NCBI RefSeq assembly: GCF_009914755.1 | Contig: NC_060930.1 | DNA length: 64,000 nucleotides | Direction: 5' to 3' (one strand) | Source of the DNA: the human T2T-CHM13v2.0 reference genome, Homo sapiens | Program-made: the position numbers and the translations under genes | Shown: piece by piece, positions 42,589-58,082 of the stretch | Layout of the letters: every line of letters starts with the position of its first letter | Numbering within the stretch: position 1 is the stretch's first letter | The notes under the pieces: model-generated | What the model was told of the DNA's origin: nothing | The model's database searches: none | The model's input: only the letters and a program-made list of their open reading frames with translations

Positions 42589-43291
42589 GTAAGGCGTGCC
42601 AGTGCTGGAGGAGGCTATTTTCTGTTTCCTTTGTGTAATCTCAGTGGTACGTCCATCCTCCATTCCCATTCATTCCCATTTGGAGGTTTGCTTTCTAAAT
42701 AAATGGTATGTTCAGTATGTCTCATCTATCTAAAAGTAGCATTTCTTTTTATAACTACTACATGAAGCATATTTTATTATTGTTGCTATTATTATTGTCA
42801 TTTACACTACTTGGATCAGAACCAGAGATTTTTATGAATGTCTGTTTACTTAGGTCACAGAAATGATTCATCCATGAAAACTGTATGGCTGATTATAAAT
42901 ATATAACCCTGATGGAATTTGGTAAATATTCTGAGGTCTTGGGGTCAAACTTAGTAAGCAGGAAGCAATGTTTAATTACCAGCTGAGAAGTAATCAAATT
43001 ACTTTGTGTTATTTCTGCCAAGTTTGATGTGAAGTACATTAACCCGACTTCTTCCCATGAGGAGCACTGCTAAATGCCATACTTTAATGTAATCAGTGTG
43101 TCAGACTCTTCAGTTTGTGACCCCAAAGCCGACAGTGCAGAGTCTGTGGTTTGTCCTAAGGTGGACATTTTTGGACATCCTGATCCACTCCTCTTAACAT
43201 AGGTATGCATTTGACCTCTTGAATATATTATATTTCTCTACTGGGGGGAATCTGGAAAATAGCCCCAGTTTAATTTGGAAATCTATTATGA

Positions 43292-43637
<346 letters not shown>

Positions 43638-44219
43638 CTATGTGTATCTTTTATTCGTACCAGAAGATGAAGTACCAATACGGTGATTCTCTGAGGGAGA
43701 GTCAAATCAGGAGGGCTGGGATTGGTTGTTGTTGTATATTGTATCAGTATTAGTATCTTGAATTAAACAGAATTGTTTTCATTTGACTGACTTTATCAGC
43801 ATAATAGTTTGTACGAAGCATATCATTGCATTCTCTGTGGATGGCTAACATAAGAAATGAAAATTCAAAAGTTCTCTTCTCTCATGCATTATGGTGTAGT
43901 TGGGAAGACTAAAGTATTGTGAGGTCAGAGGGCCTTGCTGCTATGCATTCTAAGAGGAGGAAAAGACAGGTAGGTAGTGTGAAGTAGAGTGAGCATTAGC
44001 CTGGCAGACAGCTAGGGTAATAGATGACTTCCAGTGGAAGTCAAAGCACAAATGTTGGAAGAAGAAGAATGGTAAAGTCACAGTTTAAATGCAGCAGGGT
44101 TCTTGGAATGGCTACATTTGGAGTATCTGGTAGACATAGATGTGTGGGAGAGGGAATAGCTGGAATGTGGCAAGGTCAGTCTGGGAAGATAATTCAAATG
44201 AGAGATGTAGTCATCAAAG

Positions 44220-44460
44220 CTAATAATCACTGCTATTTATTGTTTACTTTATGCCAGACAATGTGCTAAGAGGTGTTATATTTGTTATTTTAGTCACTTT
44301 TCTTAATAACTCTGTAAGATTGGGAGTATTACCTCTACTTTACACATAAAGGAACTAAGACTCCAAGATTAGTCAACTTGCCCAAGGCCAGGCAGCCGAT
44401 TGTGCAGAGACAAAGTTAGGATTCAAATCCAGAACCCTTTGGTTTTCCAGTTTGTGTTCT
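44220..44460 (-). mobile_element. MIR
   Basis: tatgccagacaatgtgctaag, aacttgcccaaggcca and ggattcaaatccag motifs. Confidence 0.65.
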
Positions 44461-45099
44461 TAATCAAGATGGTTTTAAAAAGCAGATTAGATTTTTAGGA
44501 GAGAGAGATTTAATATTAAGAAGTAATTAAATGGTATTGAAAAGAGCAATTGATTTAAAGCACTAATTATTAGACCAAAAATATTACTCTGGATATAAAC
44601 GGTAATGTGAAGCCATGGGAAAGATCCAGATTAATTGACTTGGGAAGAGACTGCCATATATAGATATATATAAAATCTGCCATATATGGCCATTGGTATA
44701 ACCTAGAGATGCCATGAGGGACCATGTTTCTCAGCATCTGATGGATGTAGAGAGTGAAGGAGAGGATAAAATACTCTAAAAACATTAAATATTTGAATGA
44801 CCTTTAAAGTTTCATTTCTTAAATTAAAAATGACCTGAAGCAACTATGTAGAATATTAAGATTTAACTGAGTTGTGGGACATGGAAGTTTATTATATTCT
44901 CCCTACTTTTGAATTAACTTGAAATATTTAATAAGAAAAATATGAAAGAGCAATTATAAAGGGTGAACAACCTGAAGTGTTAAATTTCAAGGGTTTAAGT
45001 TTCTGCTAGTACTATCAAATTGACCTGTAAATGTCTCTATGATAGAGATGTGAAGTTGACCAGCAGGTCAGAGATTAAGGTTATGGGAGGATATTCAGG

Positions 45100-45325
45100 A
45101 GATAGTGTATTGAGAAGTAGCTCTGGAGTCAGGCTACTTGGATTTCAATCCTGGATCTATTGTTTGGTGCTGAGACTTTGAATAAGATACTTGGCCTGCT
45201 TGAACCTGAGTTTCTTCAACTTCAAATTCTATGAGTGTTTCCTCATAGGAATAGTTAATACATGAAAGTATCTAGGGCAGTTCCTATCACAGAGTAGGCA
45301 TTCAGTAAATGTTGGCTCTTTTTGT
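45100..45325 (+). mobile_element. MIR
   Basis: gctctggagtcaggctacttggatttcaatcctgg ... gtaggcattcagtaaatgttgg. Confidence 0.65.
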
Positions 45326-45732
45326 TACTACCAATAACATCATTAGTGTGATAGTAGCTAAACCTATGAGTGTGTTGTTGAACATTTCCATTAAGTGGAA
45401 ATGCCAGAAAAACCTGGACAATGATGTTGCTCAGTAAAAGGCAAGATTAGAGAGAGGTATAATAAGGGACAGAACAGGATTCTTCAGAGAAATAAAGACG
45501 CATAGTGTGCTTTAGCAAGATGGTAGAGGTGTTAAGTGCATCAGAAAGATTCTTTGAATCAGAAGTCATTGGGAATCTTAGAGAGGATTCTATCCGTGTC
45601 GTTATAAAGATGGCTCAGGAAAATACATAGGCGAATATGTGCAAACAACTTGTTTAAGAAATCTAGCTATAACTTAAAATATGTCAGGATATTGAAAATT
45701 GGAAGATGGTAAGTGATATATTGTCTTACTTT

Positions 45733-46031
45733 TACTTGCATTTATATTTTTCCTGTTTTCTACATTGAGAATATAGTACATCTAAAATTTGTATTTCGAA
45801 TGAGAGAGAAATATGTCCAGACTTGATACCTGGTTTAGGCACAAGAGTGAGCAAGCAAAGGTTTCTTCAAGCTAATGGTGACTTAATTATTGCACAAAGA
45901 TTACACATGAAGGGAATGAATATAAGAACAATTCCAATAGTAAAATGGGGTCCAGTTGGAATAGGTCTGATTAGTTTAGTTGTAAAGAGATGCATCTTTC
46001 TCTGTGGCTTCAGAGAATGAATGGAAAGACA
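45733..46031 (+). repeat. Left arm of a 299-bp perfect inverted repeat (pairs with 51167-51465)
   Basis: Base-by-base comparison shows an exact reverse complement; the ORF track gives identical 65-aa peptides at 45823..46020(+) and 51178..51375(-). Confidence 0.97.
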
Positions 46032-47627
46032 AGTACAGAAATAAAGATAGAGGAATATGTCTATTATAGAATAATCTTAACTTCATTCAGACTGTCTTTC
46101 TATCAAGCTTCTACCCAAGATATATATATATATATTTCATTTTCCCCGAACTTTTATAAATACTGCTAGAGTTTTTCACTAATTACTTCCAAATAAAATG
46201 TTAATGAAATCTTAGATTTACATAATGTTTTGTAAGCTGGGAATTGTTTCAGTTAGAATCATACACAATTCCTTAATAGTAGTTGCATAAATAAATTAGA
46301 ACTTTAGTTTTCTTTCTTGTAAACAGAGTGAAGGTAGGTAATCCAAGACTGTTCTCTGTGACCACCTGGGCCCTTAGCTCTGTTTTCATGCACTGTCATC
46401 CCTGACATGTGGCTTCCATCTTCAAAGTCACTTCATGCTAACAAAGTGACTCTTCTGGATGTCAGATCCATTTTCCAGTGGGGAGGAAGAGGCAGCATGC
46501 CTCTTCCCAGCTAACTCAGTCCCTTGAAATTCCAATTAGAACCCCCACCCAATAACTTTGGTTTTTATTGCACTGGTCACCAACATCAGCAAGAGAGGCT
46601 AAGAAACAGTAATTTTCTCAAGGCTCATTGCTAAAATGTGCTAACAGTACAAGGGTATGTTACCAATGAAAAAGAGAGAATGGCTATCTGCCAAGGGAGT
46701 ATTCAGCAGAAAACAAAATTTCATTTAGAAAGAAGATGTCAGTCATACCTGTCAAGCCATGCTGATAAGCCAAGAGATGTCGTTAGTGTATGTGATTGTT
46801 TCAAACCAATAGCCTCCTTGGCAAAAGTAAGCTGGCTGTAGTATATGCAGAATGATTTCCTTAAGATTGATTTGCAAGTGATTTTTCAGGTCATTTTAGA
46901 AGCTACTCAGTACTTAGTAGTTTACAGCCACACAACTTTTAAATTTTGCTTCCATTTTCATTCTGTTGGTTCTATCATTTAATTTTTTTTCTGTAGATGT
47001 GGGTATAATTTATGTTCTTAGTTCTACCAGCAATTCTGACAGAACAGATTTCGGAGAAGATGTTTTCCACTCAGACCCATAGAAACTTATCGTCTAAGGT
47101 TTTGCTTTTGTAAATAAGATTCTGCAAGTACAAGTCAATGTGCAGTGTCATTCTTACGCCAGAGATTTTAAAACACCATTTCCATTCAAGGATGCAATGT
47201 GATCAAGGCTTTATTTAGTTTTTCCTTTGTTACACAGTATTTCTTGATTTCTTTTTTTTCTAGTGACTAATTTAAACCAAATATAAAAGTGCTCATTGTT
47301 GAAAACTGTATCTTTGTGAGGGAATTTTAAAATTCATTTCTTATTGGTGGTATAATTGATATTTTAAAATTTGATGTTTCAACTTAATAGATATAATTCT
47401 TTTCTTGCCTATCATTTTCCATTCGTATTCAAACATTAAAAGAAATCTTCTGACATGCATATTTGTCTCCCTCTCATGTATAAACAGATAGAAGCATGTT
47501 TCAGAGACTTGAACTCCAAAATTTTATATTTTATTTTTTGGTAATTCGGATGACTGAAATTTCTTACCACAAATTTAGACTAAATGATAGTAATGCAAGC
47601 CAATAAATTTTCTTTTGTTTTCTCTAG

Positions 47628-47739
47628 GTATAGAAGCCTTAAGCATTTTAACTATGATGTCTGCCAGAGTTGTTTCTTTTCGGGTCGAACAGCAAAAGGT
47701 CACAAATTACATTACCCAATGGTGGAATATTGTATACCT
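47628..47739 (+). CDS. UTRN: Utrophin coding exon (DMD exon 69 equivalent), second half of ZZ: (R)[37 protein letters not shown]
   Basis: tctctAG acceptor, GTGAGT donor at 47740; 112 nt; lies within ORF 47584..47769. Confidence 0.98.
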
Positions 47740-49024
47740 GTGAGTACTAACCCACTGTTTTGTTTTTAATACATTGCCATTGAATTAACTAGTATCTAAA
47801 ATTTTATTATTTATTTAGACTTAATCTTTTTTGAAAAAATATCACTTTGAAGATTTTTTTTTTCTTTTAAGTAAACTCATTTATGTTGAATTAATTAGTG
47901 CAGAAAAAAATATTAACTTTTTTAAATATCTGTGTTTTGATTTTAAACTTTTTTGGTAGCAAATTCTTTTAAGAGCTGATACTGACCTACACTGAAAATG
48001 ATACTATGTAACGAAAAATCATGTTTCTTTTAGACATATTTATGCTTTCATAGTTAAATACCATATTCATATTAGCAAAATACAGAAAATGTAGATATTA
48101 AAAATATAGTTCCTAACTCTAGCTCCTGAATAAACTACCTTCTAATTTTTCCATATCTCTGGTTTTAAGATTCTATTTATATTTATATTTATGTATCTTT
48201 TTCCCTGATATTTTTCACTCGACATTCCATTTCGTCACACAGTGTAATTTTTTTTAGTCACAAAATTTTTAATTGAGTGAATTACTACAGTTTACCTAAC
48301 CATTCCCTGAAATTTGGACATATAGTTTATTTTCAATTTTCTGATGTTATAAATAACACTCTTACAAGTATCTTTGTGAGGGTAGCTCATTCCAGATATT
48401 ATGTAAACTACATTGCAATAGAATAAAGCACTATAAGTAGGTTATTTCAGTCAATGAATATGGGTATTTTTTATGGTCAAAATACTTGATGTCAACGTTT
48501 TTTTCAAAATAGGTTTATCCCAATTTACATTATTATCACACTTTGTTAAAGTTTCAATTTTACTAAGCCCCACCAGTATTGGACATAAGTTCTTGTTTTT
48601 CCTTTGATTTACAGCTATTTTTTCCTGAAGTTATCCTCATGTTCTATTAATAGCTATTCTTTTACTTCCTTCCAAATAATGCCCAAATGTATTCATCAAG
48701 CTGTCTATTTTCTTTGGTTTAGGGAATTGAGTTACTTTTTTGGATCATAAATTGACAGAAAGGCTGTAATACTTATAAAATATACACATATAAATCTCAC
48801 ACTCATAGGTATCTTATCTCAAATAAATAAGTGCCCTGTGTATGGAGAGGAAATCTGTAGAAAATATTGCTGAATTATAATGGAGGAAGTGCCCACATCA
48901 CATTATAGCTTTAACCAGGAAAAAGAAATCTCCCCAAGAAAATTTGTGAGACATCATTTATTACTATTATCAACTTATTCACTCAACAAATTAATATTGA
49001 ACATTTTGCAGGTGTCAGGCCCTC

Positions 49025-49782
49025 TTGTCAAAGATAAGCAAAACCAGACACTAGTTAAAGTGGTAAGGACAGATTTTAATCAATAATATACTGATTATGC
49101 ACATGTATTTCTGTTTGTACAGAGGTGACTGGGTGTTTTCAGAAGGGAATAGACTGGGGAAACAAAAGAGGAACTTGAGCAGAGGCAAGGAAGTGAAAAA
49201 TGACAAAGCATTGGTCAGCATCAGTTCCATCAGACCAGCTGTGTCTGTGAGCTGGCAATTGTCAGAGTTAGGATTCTACCATTCCAGAGAGAGACTGGGA
49301 GACAGGGGTCCTATCCTTCCTGATGATTACATTTCAAAGAAATGGTTTTCAGATCCTTGAGAAAGACACTCCTGAGTTGTTGGAGATACATCCACATCTC
49401 AAAGGGACAGAGGAAGGATTCCCCATTGTAAACCCTTTCCAGTAAATGCCCTAAGAAAGAGTGAGCAGGGACCTGTCTTCAGGTGTTGGCTAGAGTGAAC
49501 AGTAAATTCTTTTGGCAGTCTGGAGTTTGTTTTTCAGGCAGACGCTTTAAGGGGTCAGACGCCTTAATAATCCCTTTTTTAAGGGTCATCCTAGGGATGT
49601 GGTCTTGAACTGTTATAAATTATGTTCATGTTTGTTTAAGTCTTTTAATGGAGAAGTGGGTGGACAGGGATGGACAAAATGATTTGTGCTGAAAATTTGC
49701 AGCTTTTATAGGCCAAGGCTTCAGTAGACAACAGAGCTTACAGGAGGCCAACTCAAATTTGGTCAAGGAGAGAATCCTTGTC
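49025..49782. mobile_element. Probable ERV1-class solo LTR
   Basis: TG...CA bounded block (tgtcaaagataag ... tccttgtca) interrupting L2-like sequence; family not assigned. Confidence 0.5.
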
Positions 49783-50180
49783 AGTAATTTCAGCTCTGAT
49801 AGTGTATCAGAGTATACCCAGAAAGATAAGATTGTGGACTTCCTGCTACTCTCCCTTTAGGAGGAAGAATGTGTGAGAATGAACAAGGAAACGAATAAAT
49901 GGGGTTGTTATACATTGCAGTAAGTGCCTTTAAGGAAATGAATGGATAATGAGATAGAATGATTAGAAGAGACATTTTAGATAAAGAAATCAGTAAGGTT
50001 TGTCTGAGTTGACATTTGAGTTGAGACCAAAGTTTGAGAAAGATTCAGCCCTGTAAAGAACTAGTAGAAGCATGTTTCAGAAAGAAGAAACAGAACATAT
50101 AGTGGTCTGAGTTGGGAAAAAGGTTAGCGTGATTGGGCTGCAGAAAGTGAAGCCTGTTCCCCAAGGGGCGCATGGAAAGG

Positions 50181-50408
50181 AGCACTGGTTACACAACTGG
50201 AAGTGCCCAGTGCAAAATGAAACTGGGGGGCCCCTTGTTTAACAATTATTAAGACTTCCGAGTTGGCAACATCAGAGGAGTAAATGAAGTTCAAAGCCCT
50301 TCTGATTGTAGGGCCCTGTACAACTGCATAAGTGCAATAGTTCAAAGCCCTTCTGATTGTAGGGCCCTGTACAACTGCATAAGTGCAATATCTTTGAAGC
50401 TCACCCTG
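50181..50408 (-). mobile_element. MER45A-like hAT MITE containing a 51-bp tandem duplication
   Basis: Minus strand reads cagggtgagcttc, cagggccc and aacaaggggcccc...tttcattttgcactgggc, matching MER45A motifs. Confidence 0.75.
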
Positions 50409-51166
50409 AGGCTGGGAAAGAGGTGGGTGTAACCAGGGAACAGAAAGAAACCAGGACAAATTTGACAAAAGAGAGACAATAGTAGGAGATGGAATTAAAA
50501 AGAAAGGCAACTATCAGATTGTATAGAACCCTGGGGATCATTGTAAGGAATTTGGATTGGGGGAAAATATCATAGTAATATTTACATGAATAGCTATTAT
50601 AGAAATTTAGAAAACTGATTATAAAATGCTAGTATCAAAATATCATAAAGTAAATATATGTTGTTATAGTAAAGATATATAAAATTACTATTTTTCTTGG
50701 TCTTGAACATATAATAATTCTTAATGGCTTTACAAAATACCTAAACAATTTGAAACCCACATATCTTCAACAGTTGTCATGCAGTAGGTGCATACTTAAG
50801 AATCACTGATACACATATGAATTCCACTCTCCAACTACCAATTTTAAATGAAATCTGTAAGTTACCCAAAACTGTTCTTGTTGCATAGTCTTTCAAAAGT
50901 CACTGTTTATCATTTCCAAGATTGCAGCTTATCCTGCATTATACAAGGATAGCTTCATTTTTCAAGACATCCTTTGCCCATTTCTGAGGCTTTGTAGTGA
51001 TCTTATCAACAGCCTACTTATAAATCATCTGTATGACAGGTCACTTTCTGCATTTGACCCTACAACTTTTTGTAAAATAACTAGAAATATATGTAAATTG
51101 AATCTTTAAAAAGATACTTGCATTTAATAGCAATGAATGATCTGATTGCTATTATTGTAGCATTAA

Positions 51167-51465
51167 TGTCTTTCCATTCATTCTCTGAAGCCACAGAGAA
51201 AGATGCATCTCTTTACAACTAAACTAATCAGACCTATTCCAACTGGACCCCATTTTACTATTGGAATTGTTCTTATATTCATTCCCTTCATGTGTAATCT
51301 TTGTGCAATAATTAAGTCACCATTAGCTTGAAGAAACCTTTGCTTGCTCACTCTTGTGCCTAAACCAGGTATCAAGTCTGGACATATTTCTCTCTCATTC
51401 GAAATACAAATTTTAGATGTACTATATTCTCAATGTAGAAAACAGGAAAAATATAAATGCAAGTA
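51167..51465 (-). repeat. Right arm of the 299-bp perfect inverted repeat (pairs with 45733-46031)
   Basis: Exact reverse complement of 45733-46031; identity ends abruptly at both ends. Confidence 0.97.
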
Positions 51466-53129
51466 TTCAGAAATCATTGCTTTCTGAAATTTCTTTCTGT
51501 TCACCCACATTCTTTACATTTGCTCTACTCTTTTAAGTTTTATTTATGGTTCATCCATCTTTTACTCAACATTTCCTAAAGTCGTTTCATGTCTGCCTTA
51601 GAAAATGAACTCAAGTGTGAATTTGTTTGGTACAGTGATAATAAGCAACACTTGAGTGTTAAATGGATCAGACCTTCCCATATGGACCTTGATGTTTGCA
51701 TTCCTCAGACTGCATCTCCCTTTTTAGTTAAGAAGATGCTCCAGTCACCTTACTGACTTCATCTCTTTCCTTTTCAAAGTCCTTTACAGCTGACTCTGAA
51801 TGTTTCTATTTTTAAGAGCTTTCTGCAATTTAGAAACCTTATTTTAAATCCACAAAGCACCCTAAATATTTTGCCAATATATCTGCTTATGATTTATGGT
51901 AATGTTTTCCTTTAGCTGTAAGAAGACTAATGGTATATGAATGAACTATCATGACTCATGAAAGTATTTTATGATATTGATAATTTATATATGTATATAT
52001 AAATTATCTGAAGAAATGTAGCAGAATTTTTATTTCTCTAGGAAATGATTTTTTGTCTTATTTCCCCCTACTATTCTATAATCCAAATTTGTACATTTAA
52101 GAATTCTTTCATTAGGCTTAATAAGAGTTGATCTACAAGAGACAGCATGACACAGATGATATTTAATGCCTGTCATCATTCTGTCTCCATATGTCCAAAT
52201 CCCACCTTCTCACAAAAACAGCTCAACTCCCACTTTGTGTGTGAAATCTCTCCCAGCTCCTCCAGTTTTACCCTCATCAAAGCACTTAGTTCAGGGGCCT
52301 CTGCCAATAGCCTCTACTTTACCAATTAGGATTTGATTCTATGTTCCCTTGTATCATTTTCTAACTGTGGTGTTTTTGTCTTCTCAATTATCTTTTTACC
52401 TCCTTGAGGACTGGGATGACTTTTATACTTTTCTCCCTGTGTTAGTTAAATTTGCCTCATAAAAGCCAGATGAGCTCGTATCTGACTTTATAAATACTAG
52501 TTATAGAATATTAAAGCTGGAATTAAAGCTCTAAGAGATCATCTAACTTATCTTTATTTTGAAGAAAAAACTAAGTCTTAGAGAAGGTAAGTGATTTGTG
52601 CAAAGTTAATGGTATGGATTTAGTGACTTAACTCCATTAGGGAAATACACACACACACACGCAGTTAGCACATTGGAAAATAGGGGTTTGTGTATATCCT
52701 TGCTGGAATATTATGTTTGTTGAATACCCTTTTACATACCAGGCATTTTGCTAGGAGTTGGAAATAGAGAGAAAATTTCATGAAGGAGAAAAAATACCTC
52801 TATGTGGAGAAATTCAACAAGACTGTAATATTTTTTAGAATGATTAAGCTTATGAATCAAGAGAGTAGTCAATTTTTTTTTTGTATTATCCATGCATTAA
52901 ACCTTTGAATTCAGGGATTATCATTTTTTAAATAAATAGTTATATCTTATATTAAAGATGTTCAGATTTAAATTTCTTTTTTATTTATGATGATTTAATT
53001 TCATCGTGAAAATTACCCTACTCAGATCTTCTTTAAAATCATCTTTGTTGTAAGTAACCAAAATTTAATTCAAATTAGAAACATTTTCATATGTTGTTAG
53101 AGCATATAAAAGATAGTGTGTGGTTTTGT

Positions 53130-57739: not shown

Positions 57740-58082
57740 TTTGTTGTTGTTGTTTTATTTTTTTATTTTTATTTTTATTTATTTATTTATTTATTTTTTT
57801 GAAATGGAGTTTCGCTCTTGTTGTCCAAGCTGGAAGCAATGGCGCAATCTTGGCTCACTGCAACCTCTGCCTCCCGGGTTCAAGTGATTCTCCTGCCTTA
57901 GCCTCCTGAGTAGCTGGGATTCCAGGCATGTGCCACCACGCCCAGCTAATTTTTGCATTTTTAGTAGAGACGGGGTTTCACCTTGTTAGCCAGGATGATC
58001 TCGATCTCCTGACCTCGTGATCCGCCCGCCTCGGCCTCCCCAAAGTGCTGGGATTACAGGCATGGGCCACCACACCTGGCCC
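57740..58082 (-). mobile_element. Alu (AluS-like), antisense, with a long compound tail
   Basis: Full dimer; TSD cagagttttt on both sides. Confidence 0.93.

What the first reader, a model, noticed from the sequence alone, without database searches (positions are those of the whole stretch)
45733..51465. 299-bp, 100%-identical inverted repeat bracketing the ZZ-domain exon
Seen: 45733-46031 is the exact reverse complement of 51167-51465, with no mismatch found over 299 nt and a 5135-nt spacer. The arms lie in the two introns flanking the 112-nt exon 47628-47739. The sequence is not an Alu or a young L1, and its surroundings look like old, decayed repeat DNA. Perfect identity therefore needs a recent templated copy, ongoing gene conversion, or an assembly or construct artefact. 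Established: intronic complementary arms that loop out an exon can drive skipping or back-splicing, long perfect dsRNA is an ADAR substrate, and inverted repeats can mediate inversion of the spacer. Inference: in pre-mRNA this duplex would sequester an exon whose length is not a multiple of 3. Skipping would frameshift utrophin within the ZZ finger (likely NMD). This could be a lineage-specific structural dial on utrophin output, or a substrate for an exon-inactivating inversion of about 5 kb.
Basis: partly seen in the sequence, partly recalled or inferred. Interest (0 to 1): 0.9.

Follow-up and report, generated by a model that had tools for sequence, protein, structure and literature searches.

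The report
Inverted duplicate flanking utrophin exon 65
A 299-base stretch of unique intron sequence has been copied, backwards and without error, into the next intron of the utrophin gene; it looks like an ordinary small inverted duplication, and no effect on the gene has been shown.

Summary
Bases 45733-46031 are the exact reverse complement of 51167-51465: 299 nt, 0 mismatches, 5135-nt spacer. These are the only two copies found in the CHM13 genome. The arms lie in introns 64 and 65 of UTRN and bracket exon 65. That exon is 112 nt and encodes ZZ-domain profile positions 20-44 of 45.

Homology stops dead at the arm edges. There is no target-site duplication or poly-A tail. A third copy of the arm's terminal 12-mer sits 40 nt from arm B. 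This points to a replicative template switch that copied intron 64 (donor) into intron 65 (acceptor).

Small inverted duplications are a known human variant class, with a median length of 284 bp and mostly 1-15 bp junction microhomology (PMC12350158). Zero differences is compatible with any age up to about 10 Myr.

In pre-mRNA the arms would form a duplex of -538 kcal/mol around exon 65. Skipping would give a premature stop. Against a strong effect:
- the arms are 1.6 and 3.4 kb from the exon;
- the splice sites look strong;
- the exon is very short for circularisation (PMC4201285, PMC2533698).

No function is shown. Population and lineage status could not be tested here.

The parts
45733..46031 (+). 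Arm A, in UTRN intron 64. It ends 1596 nt upstream of exon 65. Inferred to be the donor (original) copy.
   Evidence: 34% GC and 1 CpG. The flanks are unique in the genome.
51167..51465 (-). Arm B, in UTRN intron 65. It is the exact reverse complement of arm A and starts 3427 nt downstream of exon 65. Inferred to be the inserted (acceptor-site) copy.
   Evidence: The flanks are unique in the genome. No target-site duplication or poly-A tail at its edges.
51115..51126 (+). 12-mer TACTTGCATTTA, identical to the first 12 nt of arm A and complementary to the outer end of arm B. It lies 40 nt left of arm B. With A51114 and T51466 the complementarity reaches 13 nt. It is the likely homology or snap-back site of the template switch.
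   Evidence: 3 matches in the window against 0.02 expected, and 0 of 100 shuffles reach 3 or more; only the B-left flank has an exact match to the arm longer than 9 nt, and 8 of 1000 shuffles reach 12. One search shows the 13-nt alignment.
47628..47739 (+). UTRN exon 65 of 75 (NM_007124.3): 112 nt, aa 3082-3119, encoding the C-terminal part of the ZZ zinc finger. It lies inside the 5135-nt loop.
   Evidence: annotation; Pfam ZZ PF00569, E 4.9e-9; splice-site sequences; frameshift on skipping.
46032..51166 (.). The 5135-nt spacer between the arms. This is the loop of the predicted RNA structure, and the segment that recombination between the arms would invert.
51466..51488 (+). Small perfect hairpin with an 8-bp stem (TTCAGAAA / TTTCTGAA) and a 7-nt loop, abutting the outer edge of arm B. 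It may have stalled replication at the acceptor site (inference).
   Evidence: Read directly from the flank printed and the sequence.

Best explanation
This is a small inverted dispersed duplication. About 287-299 nt of unique sequence from UTRN intron 64 (arm A, the donor) was copied in reverse-complement orientation into intron 65 (arm B, the acceptor), 5.1 kb away. The likely cause is one switch-and-return error of a DNA polymerase during replication or break repair. In the four-point template-switch description this is a long-range '3-2-1-4' event.

The acceptor site carries a 12-nt word identical to the donor's first 12 nt. That word could have acted in either of two ways. It could have given the nascent strand a 12-nt homology with which to land on the donor. 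Or it could have let the newly copied end snap back on its own strand and so end the copying there.

The product is most probably a neutral structural variant or lineage-specific insertion less than about 10 Myr old.

Consequences (inferred, not shown): in any pre-mRNA where intron 64 is still present when arm B is transcribed, the arms should form a perfect 299-bp duplex that loops out exon 65. Such a duplex should be a good nuclear ADAR substrate. Its effect on exon 65 inclusion or circularisation is probably small.
For: Shown:
- Exact 299-nt inverted identity.
- Only two copies in the genome, and unique flanks.
- No masked repeat nearby.
- Identity ends abruptly. Outer and inner flanks of 100, 300 and 600 nt score no better than shuffles in inverted or direct orientation; 44-275 of 300 shuffles reach the observed score.
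- No target-site duplication or poly-A tail.
- The terminal 12-mer of the arm recurs 40 nt from arm B: 3 matches in the window against 0.02 expected. B-left is the only one of 4 flanks with such a match, and 8 of 1000 shuffles reach 12 nt.

From the literature:
- Among 733 non-mobile-element inversion-type variants in 1,019 people, inverted duplications were the commonest class: 277 events, median length 284 bp. Only 8.8% showed breakpoint homology and most had 1-15 bp of microhomology, which the authors read as a replicative origin (PMC12350158, passages).
- The four-point model defines type 3-2-1-4 as one that creates an inverted repeat (PMC5453318, passages).

RNA side:
- Duplex energy is -538.2 kcal/mol, against -58.0 and -48.2 for the arms folded alone.
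- Only one other cross-exon complementarity exists, an 85% Alu-like pair 20 kb apart.
Against: - No outgroup or second human assembly could be consulted. The empty acceptor site has therefore not been seen, and the donor-to-acceptor direction rests on the 12-mer alone.
- Neither variant of the switch model explains the inner junction by more than 0-1 nt of microhomology.
- A 299-nt copy taken from 5 kb away lies outside the short-range events that the four-point paper modelled. Its authors say they do not model long-range switches (PMC5453318).
- Perfect identity could also be kept up by later gene conversion, so the age bound is soft.
- Neutrality is an assumption. No RNA data were available.
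Confidence: 0.75

Rival explanations
1. Functional RNA clamp. The duplex is a lineage-specific regulator that lowers full-length utrophin by forcing exon 65 skipping (frameshift and NMD) or back-splicing.
For: The arms are the strongest complementarity across exon 65 by far. They have no competing partner within their own introns. Arm B is transcribed 14,024 nt before exon 66, so the duplex has time to form before intron 65 can be removed (coordinates; inference). Skipping gives a premature stop with 9 junctions downstream. Inverted intronic repeats can change a constitutive exon to an alternative one (PMC2533698, abstract), and 30-40 nt repeats suffice for circularisation (PMC4201285, abstract).
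Against: Both RefSeq transcripts include the exon. The splice sites look strong: a long pyrimidine tract and GTGAGT. In the RABL5 minigene the repeat effect vanished when the repeat was moved 68-800 nt from the exon (PMC2533698, section 11); here the distances are 1596 and 3427 nt. Exons of 400 nt or less circularised poorly or not at all, and stronger hairpins sometimes inhibited (PMC4201285, passages); this exon is 112 nt. The only circUTRN found in print is from exons 18-21 (listing; PMC12773704, passages). There is no evidence of selection.
Confidence: 0.1
2. An ancient inverted repeat, for example two old copies of one element, kept identical over 299 nt by ongoing gene conversion.
For: Gene conversion is known to homogenise inverted repeats (general knowledge). 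Zero mismatches alone cannot exclude it.
Against: There is no residual similarity beyond the arm edges at 100, 300 or 600 nt. No further copies or relatives exist in the genome, and no masked repeat is present. Conversion tracts would not be expected to end at the same base in both arms with unrelated sequence right outside.
Confidence: 0.05
3. The direction is reversed: arm B in intron 65 is the original and arm A in intron 64 is the inserted copy.
For: Nothing in the window directly shows an empty site. A short TACTT word recurs 6 nt before arm A, which could be slipped microhomology.
Against: Under this direction the 12-mer at 51115-51126 has no role. Its exact register with the arm terminus would then be a coincidence. 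My own estimate of that chance is roughly 1e-4, derived.
Confidence: 0.2
4. An assembly or consensus artefact in T2T-CHM13.
For: None found.
Against: The whole 5.7-kb structure is shorter than the long reads used for this assembly (recalled, not checked). The insertion has clean edges, and its size and junction features match real population variants (PMC12350158, passages).
Confidence: 0.03

Closest known systems
Polymorphic inverted duplications in human long-read structural-variant catalogues (PMC12350158)
   Same: A reverse-complement copy of nearby unique sequence. The size is 299 nt against the catalogue median of 284 bp. There is little or no long breakpoint homology, at most 12-13 nt of short homology, and no mobile-element hallmarks.
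   Different: Whether this one varies among people is unknown. I could not see the catalogue's call set because supplements are closed. The paper passages I read do not give donor-to-copy distances, so I cannot say whether 5.1 kb is typical.
Short template-switch mutations, four-point model type 3-2-1-4 (PMC5453318)
   Same: The same geometry: replication leaves its template, copies a fragment in reverse complement, and returns. This creates a perfect inverted repeat able to form an RNA hairpin.
   Different: The passages read give a lower limit of 14 bp for copied fragments and describe inserted segments as coming from nearby sequence within the same replication fork. Here the copied fragment is 299 nt and lies 5.1 kb away. 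The authors state that long-range switches are outside their model.
Inverted Alu pairs flanking exons: alternative splicing (PMC2533698) and exon circularisation (PMC4201285)
   Same: Complementary intronic sequences on either side of an exon are predicted to pair in pre-mRNA and bring splice sites together.
   Different: The arms are unique sequence, perfectly paired and without competing partners. They lie kilobases from the exon, and the exon is only 112 nt. Both features were unfavourable in the published minigene tests.
Long, highly paired endogenous dsRNAs (dsRNAscan preprint, PMC11838218)
   Same: A predicted intramolecular dsRNA of about 300 bp with near-complete pairing and a loop under 10 kb. 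This class is rare: 2,018 of 5,134,754 predictions.
   Different: Most members of that class come from inverted LINEs and 88% are intergenic. This one is non-repetitive and intronic. At 299 bp it falls just under that paper's cut-off of more than 300 bp. UTRN is not mentioned in the main text (0 occurrences).

Membership tests
Inverted duplication structural variant of replicative origin | A second copy in reverse-complement orientation on the same chromosome, near the source | tested here: met
   two copies only, 5135 nt apart, inverted.
Inverted duplication structural variant of replicative origin | Discrete copy: identity ends abruptly, with no extended flanking homology | tested here: met
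   flank alignments of 100, 300 and 600 nt are no better than shuffles.
Inverted duplication structural variant of replicative origin | Short (1-15 bp) microhomology at the breakpoint junctions (PMC12350158) | tested here: inconclusive
   A 12-nt word shared by the donor terminus and the acceptor flank fits one junction if the acceptor already held its complement. The inner junction shows 0-1 nt. The empty site has not been seen.
Inverted duplication structural variant of replicative origin | Absence of one copy in an outgroup or in other haplotypes | not testable with these tools
Dispersed repeat pair (Alu, L1 or other mobile element) | Many related copies genome-wide, plus target-site duplication or poly-A tail | tested here: not met
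   2 copies; not masked; no target-site duplication or poly-A tail.
Conversion-maintained palindrome or old inverted repeat | Decayed homology continuing outside the identical core | tested here: not met
Repeat-driven circular-RNA locus | Complementary sequences in the two introns flanking the circularised exon | tested here: met
Repeat-driven circular-RNA locus | An observed back-splice junction | not testable with these tools
   No RNA-seq is available. The literature search found only the exon 18-21 circUTRN (listing; passages).
Repeat-driven circular-RNA locus | Exon long enough to circularise efficiently | tested here: not met
   The exon is 112 nt. ZKSCAN1 exons of 400 nt or less circularised poorly or not at all (PMC4201285, passages). 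That is one minigene system, not a universal rule.
ADAR hyper-editing substrate | Long, near-perfect intramolecular dsRNA within a transcribed unit | tested here: met
   299 bp fully paired, -538.2 kcal/mol, inside UTRN introns on the sense strand. This is prediction only.
ADAR hyper-editing substrate | Clusters of A-to-G mismatches in RNA | not testable with these tools
   No RNA data are available.
Substrate for inversion by recombination between inverted repeats | Inverted identical arms at or above the minimal length for homologous recombination | tested here: inconclusive
   The arms are 299 nt and 100% identical. The threshold of a few hundred bp is recalled, not checked. No inverted allele could be looked for.

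The most novel reading that the evidence does not exclude
The duplication is a human-lineage or still-polymorphic variant whose perfect 299-bp intronic duplex measurably lowers full-length utrophin. It could do so through exon 65 skipping with NMD, or through occasional arm-to-arm recombination that flips exon 65. Either way it would be a natural modifier of utrophin dosage, which matters because utrophin can stand in for dystrophin.
Probability: 0.08. Interest if true: 0.65.

Novelty: new member of a known kind. Interest (0 to 1): 0.3.

Why it matters
Taken as it stands, this is a clean, well-resolved example of a small inverted duplication, with a readable junction clue (the 12-mer) to how the template switch happened. 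It sits around a frame-breaking exon of a medically watched gene.

If the arms do pair in vivo, this would be a rare non-repetitive, perfectly paired, roughly 300-bp dsRNA inside a gene. A genome-wide scan found that class to be scarce (2,018 of 5.1 million predicted dsRNAs, mostly LINE-derived and intergenic; PMC11838218).

If it also varies among people, it would offer a natural test of whether a distant perfect clamp alters splicing of an enclosed exon, and a possible modifier of utrophin level. None of that is shown here.

Tried and rejected
- Rfam gathering scan of 44000-53000: 0 matches. No known RNA family is present.
- Junction-flank local alignments in all orientations. A resemblance between the right flank of arm A and the right flank of arm B (CAAGTA..CAGAAAT, score 11) looked suggestive, but unrelated pairs in the same call scored 8-16. 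I treat it as noise.
- An 8-mer (AATGAATG) shared by the B-left flank and the arm's end. I rejected it because 8-mer matches are the norm in shuffles, where the mean longest match is 8.2-8.4.
- The idea that the spacer was inverted by a staggered-break inversion that duplicates its ends. I rejected it because exon 65 lies in the spacer in the correct orientation and order.
- Transposition or retroposition. Rejected: no target-site duplication, no poly-A tail, only 2 copies.
- Literature searches for this specific repeat:
  - 'utrophin' + 'inverted repeat' + 'intron': 12 papers, none with a title or abstract start about this locus (listing only).
  - 'UTRN', 'inverted duplication', 'intronic', 'T2T-CHM13', at least 3 of 4 terms: 10 papers, 9 listed. 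8 of the 9 have 0 occurrences of UTRN, and the ninth is an antisense-therapy review (listing only).
  - 'circUTRN': 40 papers (listing). I read passages of only one.
  So I found no description of this repeat in print, within those three searches.
- Supplements are closed and I did not try to open them. The variant call set of PMC12350158 and the dsRNA tables of PMC11838218 could show whether this repeat is polymorphic or present in GRCh38.
- The mutation rate (0.5e-9 per bp per year), Pol II speed, the recombination length threshold and the CHM13 read lengths are recalled, not taken from any call.

Full report
OBSERVATION. The repeat finder reports a single inverted pair, 45733-46031 and 51167-51465: 299 nt, 100% complementary, 5135 nt between the arms. 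I read both strands, and a script asserted identity. A search of the whole CHM13 genome with the arm returns 2 of 2 places, both here. Searches with 1.5 kb around each arm return only the region itself plus the other arm. The tool warns that very common words are skipped and closed regions hidden, so these counts are lower bounds. In the 64-kb window nothing else of 100 nt or more is identical; the other 20 inverted pairs are 74-89% Alu-like.

SETTING. The annotation file shows the enclosed exon 47628-47739 is exon 65 of 75 in NM_007124.3 (exon 15 of 25 in NM_001375323.1). It is 112 nt and covers aa 3082-3119. Intron 64 is 42589-47627 and intron 65 is 47740-65489. Arm A ends 1596 nt before the exon. 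Arm B starts 3427 nt after it and ends 14,024 nt before exon 66. Translated in frame, the exon matches Pfam ZZ (PF00569) positions 20-44 of 45, E 4.9e-9. The end of exon 64 carries ZZ positions 2-18, after the end of EF-hand_3. Joining exon 64 to exon 66 in a script shifts the frame and gives a stop 131 nt into exon 66, with 9 exon junctions downstream.

WHAT THE ARMS ARE NOT.
- They are not a dispersed repeat: there are only two copies.
- They are not masked. No masked stretch of 100 bp or more lies between 43632 and 53198.
- They match no Rfam family at gathering score.
- They have no target-site duplication or poly-A tail (flanks printed).
- They are not the core of a longer, older inverted repeat. 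Outer and inner flanks of 100, 300 and 600 nt, aligned in inverted or direct orientation, score within the shuffle distribution; 44 to 275 of 300 shuffles reach the observed score. The identity begins and ends at a single base on each side.

THE JUNCTION CLUE. The first 12 nt of arm A (TACTTGCATTTA) occur a third time, at 51115-51126 on the + strand. That is 40 nt to the left of arm B, and the word is complementary to arm B's outer end. The window holds 3 matches against 0.02 expected, and 0 of 100 shuffles reach 3. Of the four 100-nt flanks, only B-left has an exact match to the arm longer than 9 nt, and a 12-nt match anywhere in the arm arises in 8 of 1000 shuffles. That this match is in register with the very terminus of the arm makes chance much less likely; my own rough estimate is about 1e-4. 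With A51114 and T51466 the complementarity is 13 nt. Other small similarities at the junctions are at noise level.

ORIGIN (INFERENCE). The 12-mer makes sense if intron 65 was the acceptor. There are two variants:
- (a) The acceptor already held a 13-bp inverted pair with a 40-nt loop. A strand that had just copied its right half then landed by 12-nt homology on intron 64, copied 287 nt, and returned.
- (b) A strand that had switched to intron 64 copied leftwards until its new 3' end became complementary to the 12-mer 327 nt behind it on the same strand. It snapped back, fell off the donor, and rejoined.
Both variants make A the donor and B the copy. If B were the donor, the 12-mer would have no role. 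In the four-point description of template switching this is type 3-2-1-4, which creates an inverted repeat (PMC5453318, passages). Those authors state, however, that they do not model long-range switches. An 8-bp hairpin abuts arm B at 51466-51488, and a (TA)n run lies 86 nt right of arm A. Either could stall a fork, but that is speculation.

HOW ORDINARY IT IS. A long-read survey of 1,019 people reports that, among 733 inversion-type variants outside mobile-element insertions, inverted duplications were the commonest class. There were 277 events with a median length of 284 bp. Only 8.8% showed breakpoint homology, and most had 1-15 bp of microhomology, which the authors read as a replicative origin (PMC12350158, passages). 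At 299 nt this event is typical of that class. I could not see the call set because supplements are closed, so I do not know whether this locus is in it.

AGE. With 2 x 299 nt at risk and a recalled rate of 0.5e-9 per bp per year, the probability of no difference is 0.74 at 1 Myr, 0.41 at 3 Myr, 0.14 at 6.5 Myr, 0.05 at 10 Myr and 0.0025 at 20 Myr. The arm has only 1 CpG, so the true rate is probably lower. Perfect identity therefore bounds the age only to under about 10 Myr. The repeat could be private to this genome, polymorphic, human-specific, or shared with African apes. Later gene conversion would loosen even that bound.

RNA CONSEQUENCES (PREDICTION ONLY). The two arms pair over all 299 positions at -538.2 kcal/mol, against -58.0 and -48.2 when each is folded alone. 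Neither arm has another partner in its own intron. The only other complementarity across exon 65 is an Alu-like pair, 43343-43624 against 64022-64303 (85% over 286 nt, 20 kb apart). The downstream member of that pair also has a partner within intron 65. The duplex would therefore be the dominant long-range structure around exon 65 in any transcript that still holds intron 64 when arm B is made. Each arm offers about 100 adenosines (102 and 95) to ADAR.

WHY THE SPLICING EFFECT IS PROBABLY SMALL.
- Both RefSeq transcripts include the exon.
- Its 3' splice site has a long pyrimidine tract and its 5' splice site reads GTGAGT.
- In the one detailed minigene study I read, the effect of an inverted Alu pair was lost once the nearer Alu was moved more than about 68 nt, and up to 800 nt, from the exon (PMC2533698, section 11).
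- In the ZKSCAN1 system, exons of 400 nt or less circularised poorly or not at all, and strengthening the hairpin did not help and could abolish circle formation (PMC4201285, passages).
- The circUTRN in print derives from exons 18-21 (PMC12773704, passages).
These are results from other genes and are not a test of this one.

RARITY AS A dsRNA. A genome-wide predictor found 5,134,754 candidate dsRNAs, of which only 2,018 were longer than 300 bp and more than 96% paired. Most of those came from inverted LINEs and 88% were intergenic. Non-repetitive dsRNAs averaged about 2 per Mb, with median lengths of 75-144 bp (PMC11838218, passages). A perfectly paired, non-repetitive, intronic 299-bp duplex is thus uncommon, though it falls just under that paper's length cut-off. 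UTRN does not occur in its main text.

DNA CONSEQUENCES (INFERENCE). Recombination between the arms would invert 46032-51166 and with it exon 65. At 299 identical bases this is near the recalled lower limit for efficient homologous recombination. A 5.1-kb spacer makes hairpin or cruciform extrusion in DNA unlikely (recalled). No inverted allele could be looked for.

VERDICT. The feature is real and cleanly delimited. It is best explained as a small inverted duplication made by a replicative template switch from intron 64 into intron 65 (confidence about 0.75; direction about 0.75-0.8 within that). It is a new member of a known kind. The functional reading is possible but unsupported, and on the published minigene evidence unlikely to be strong. 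Interest is 0.3. It would rise sharply if the variant proved polymorphic and correlated with exon 65 inclusion or UTRN level.

Noticed in passing
window 50288-50389: A perfect 51-bp tandem duplication (2 copies, 100%) inside the spacer, 778 nt left of arm B, with 1 nt of junction microhomology. It is a second error-free duplication close to the acceptor site. It could belong to the same complex event or be an unrelated small variable repeat.
   Followed up: partly
window 50892-51092: RefSeq lists a 'silencer' (an MPRA reporter fragment, peak6190) ending 75 nt before arm B and 23 nt before the 12-mer. This is the only functional-element annotation between 40000 and 56000.
   Followed up: no
window 43343-43624, and 64022-64303 (the latter in L003, just past the window end): An Alu-like inverted pair (85% over 286 nt) also spans exon 65, 20 kb apart. 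The downstream copy also pairs with 57786-58076 in the same intron (83%).
   Followed up: partly
window 51979-52008: A perfect 14-bp AT-rich palindrome with a 2-nt gap (GATAATTTATATAT / ATATATAAATTATC), about 500 nt right of arm B.
   Followed up: no
window 46117-46138: A short (TA)n run 86 nt right of arm A, able to form a hairpin. It lies close to the inferred donor end.
   Followed up: no
window 47489-47505 and 50065-50081: An exact 17-nt direct repeat (TAGAAGCATGTTTCAGA). The first copy is 123 nt upstream of exon 65. There is also an exact 15-nt direct repeat at 47308-47322 and 48368-48382. About one 14-mer repeat is expected by chance in 7 kb (my estimate), so these are borderline.
   Followed up: no
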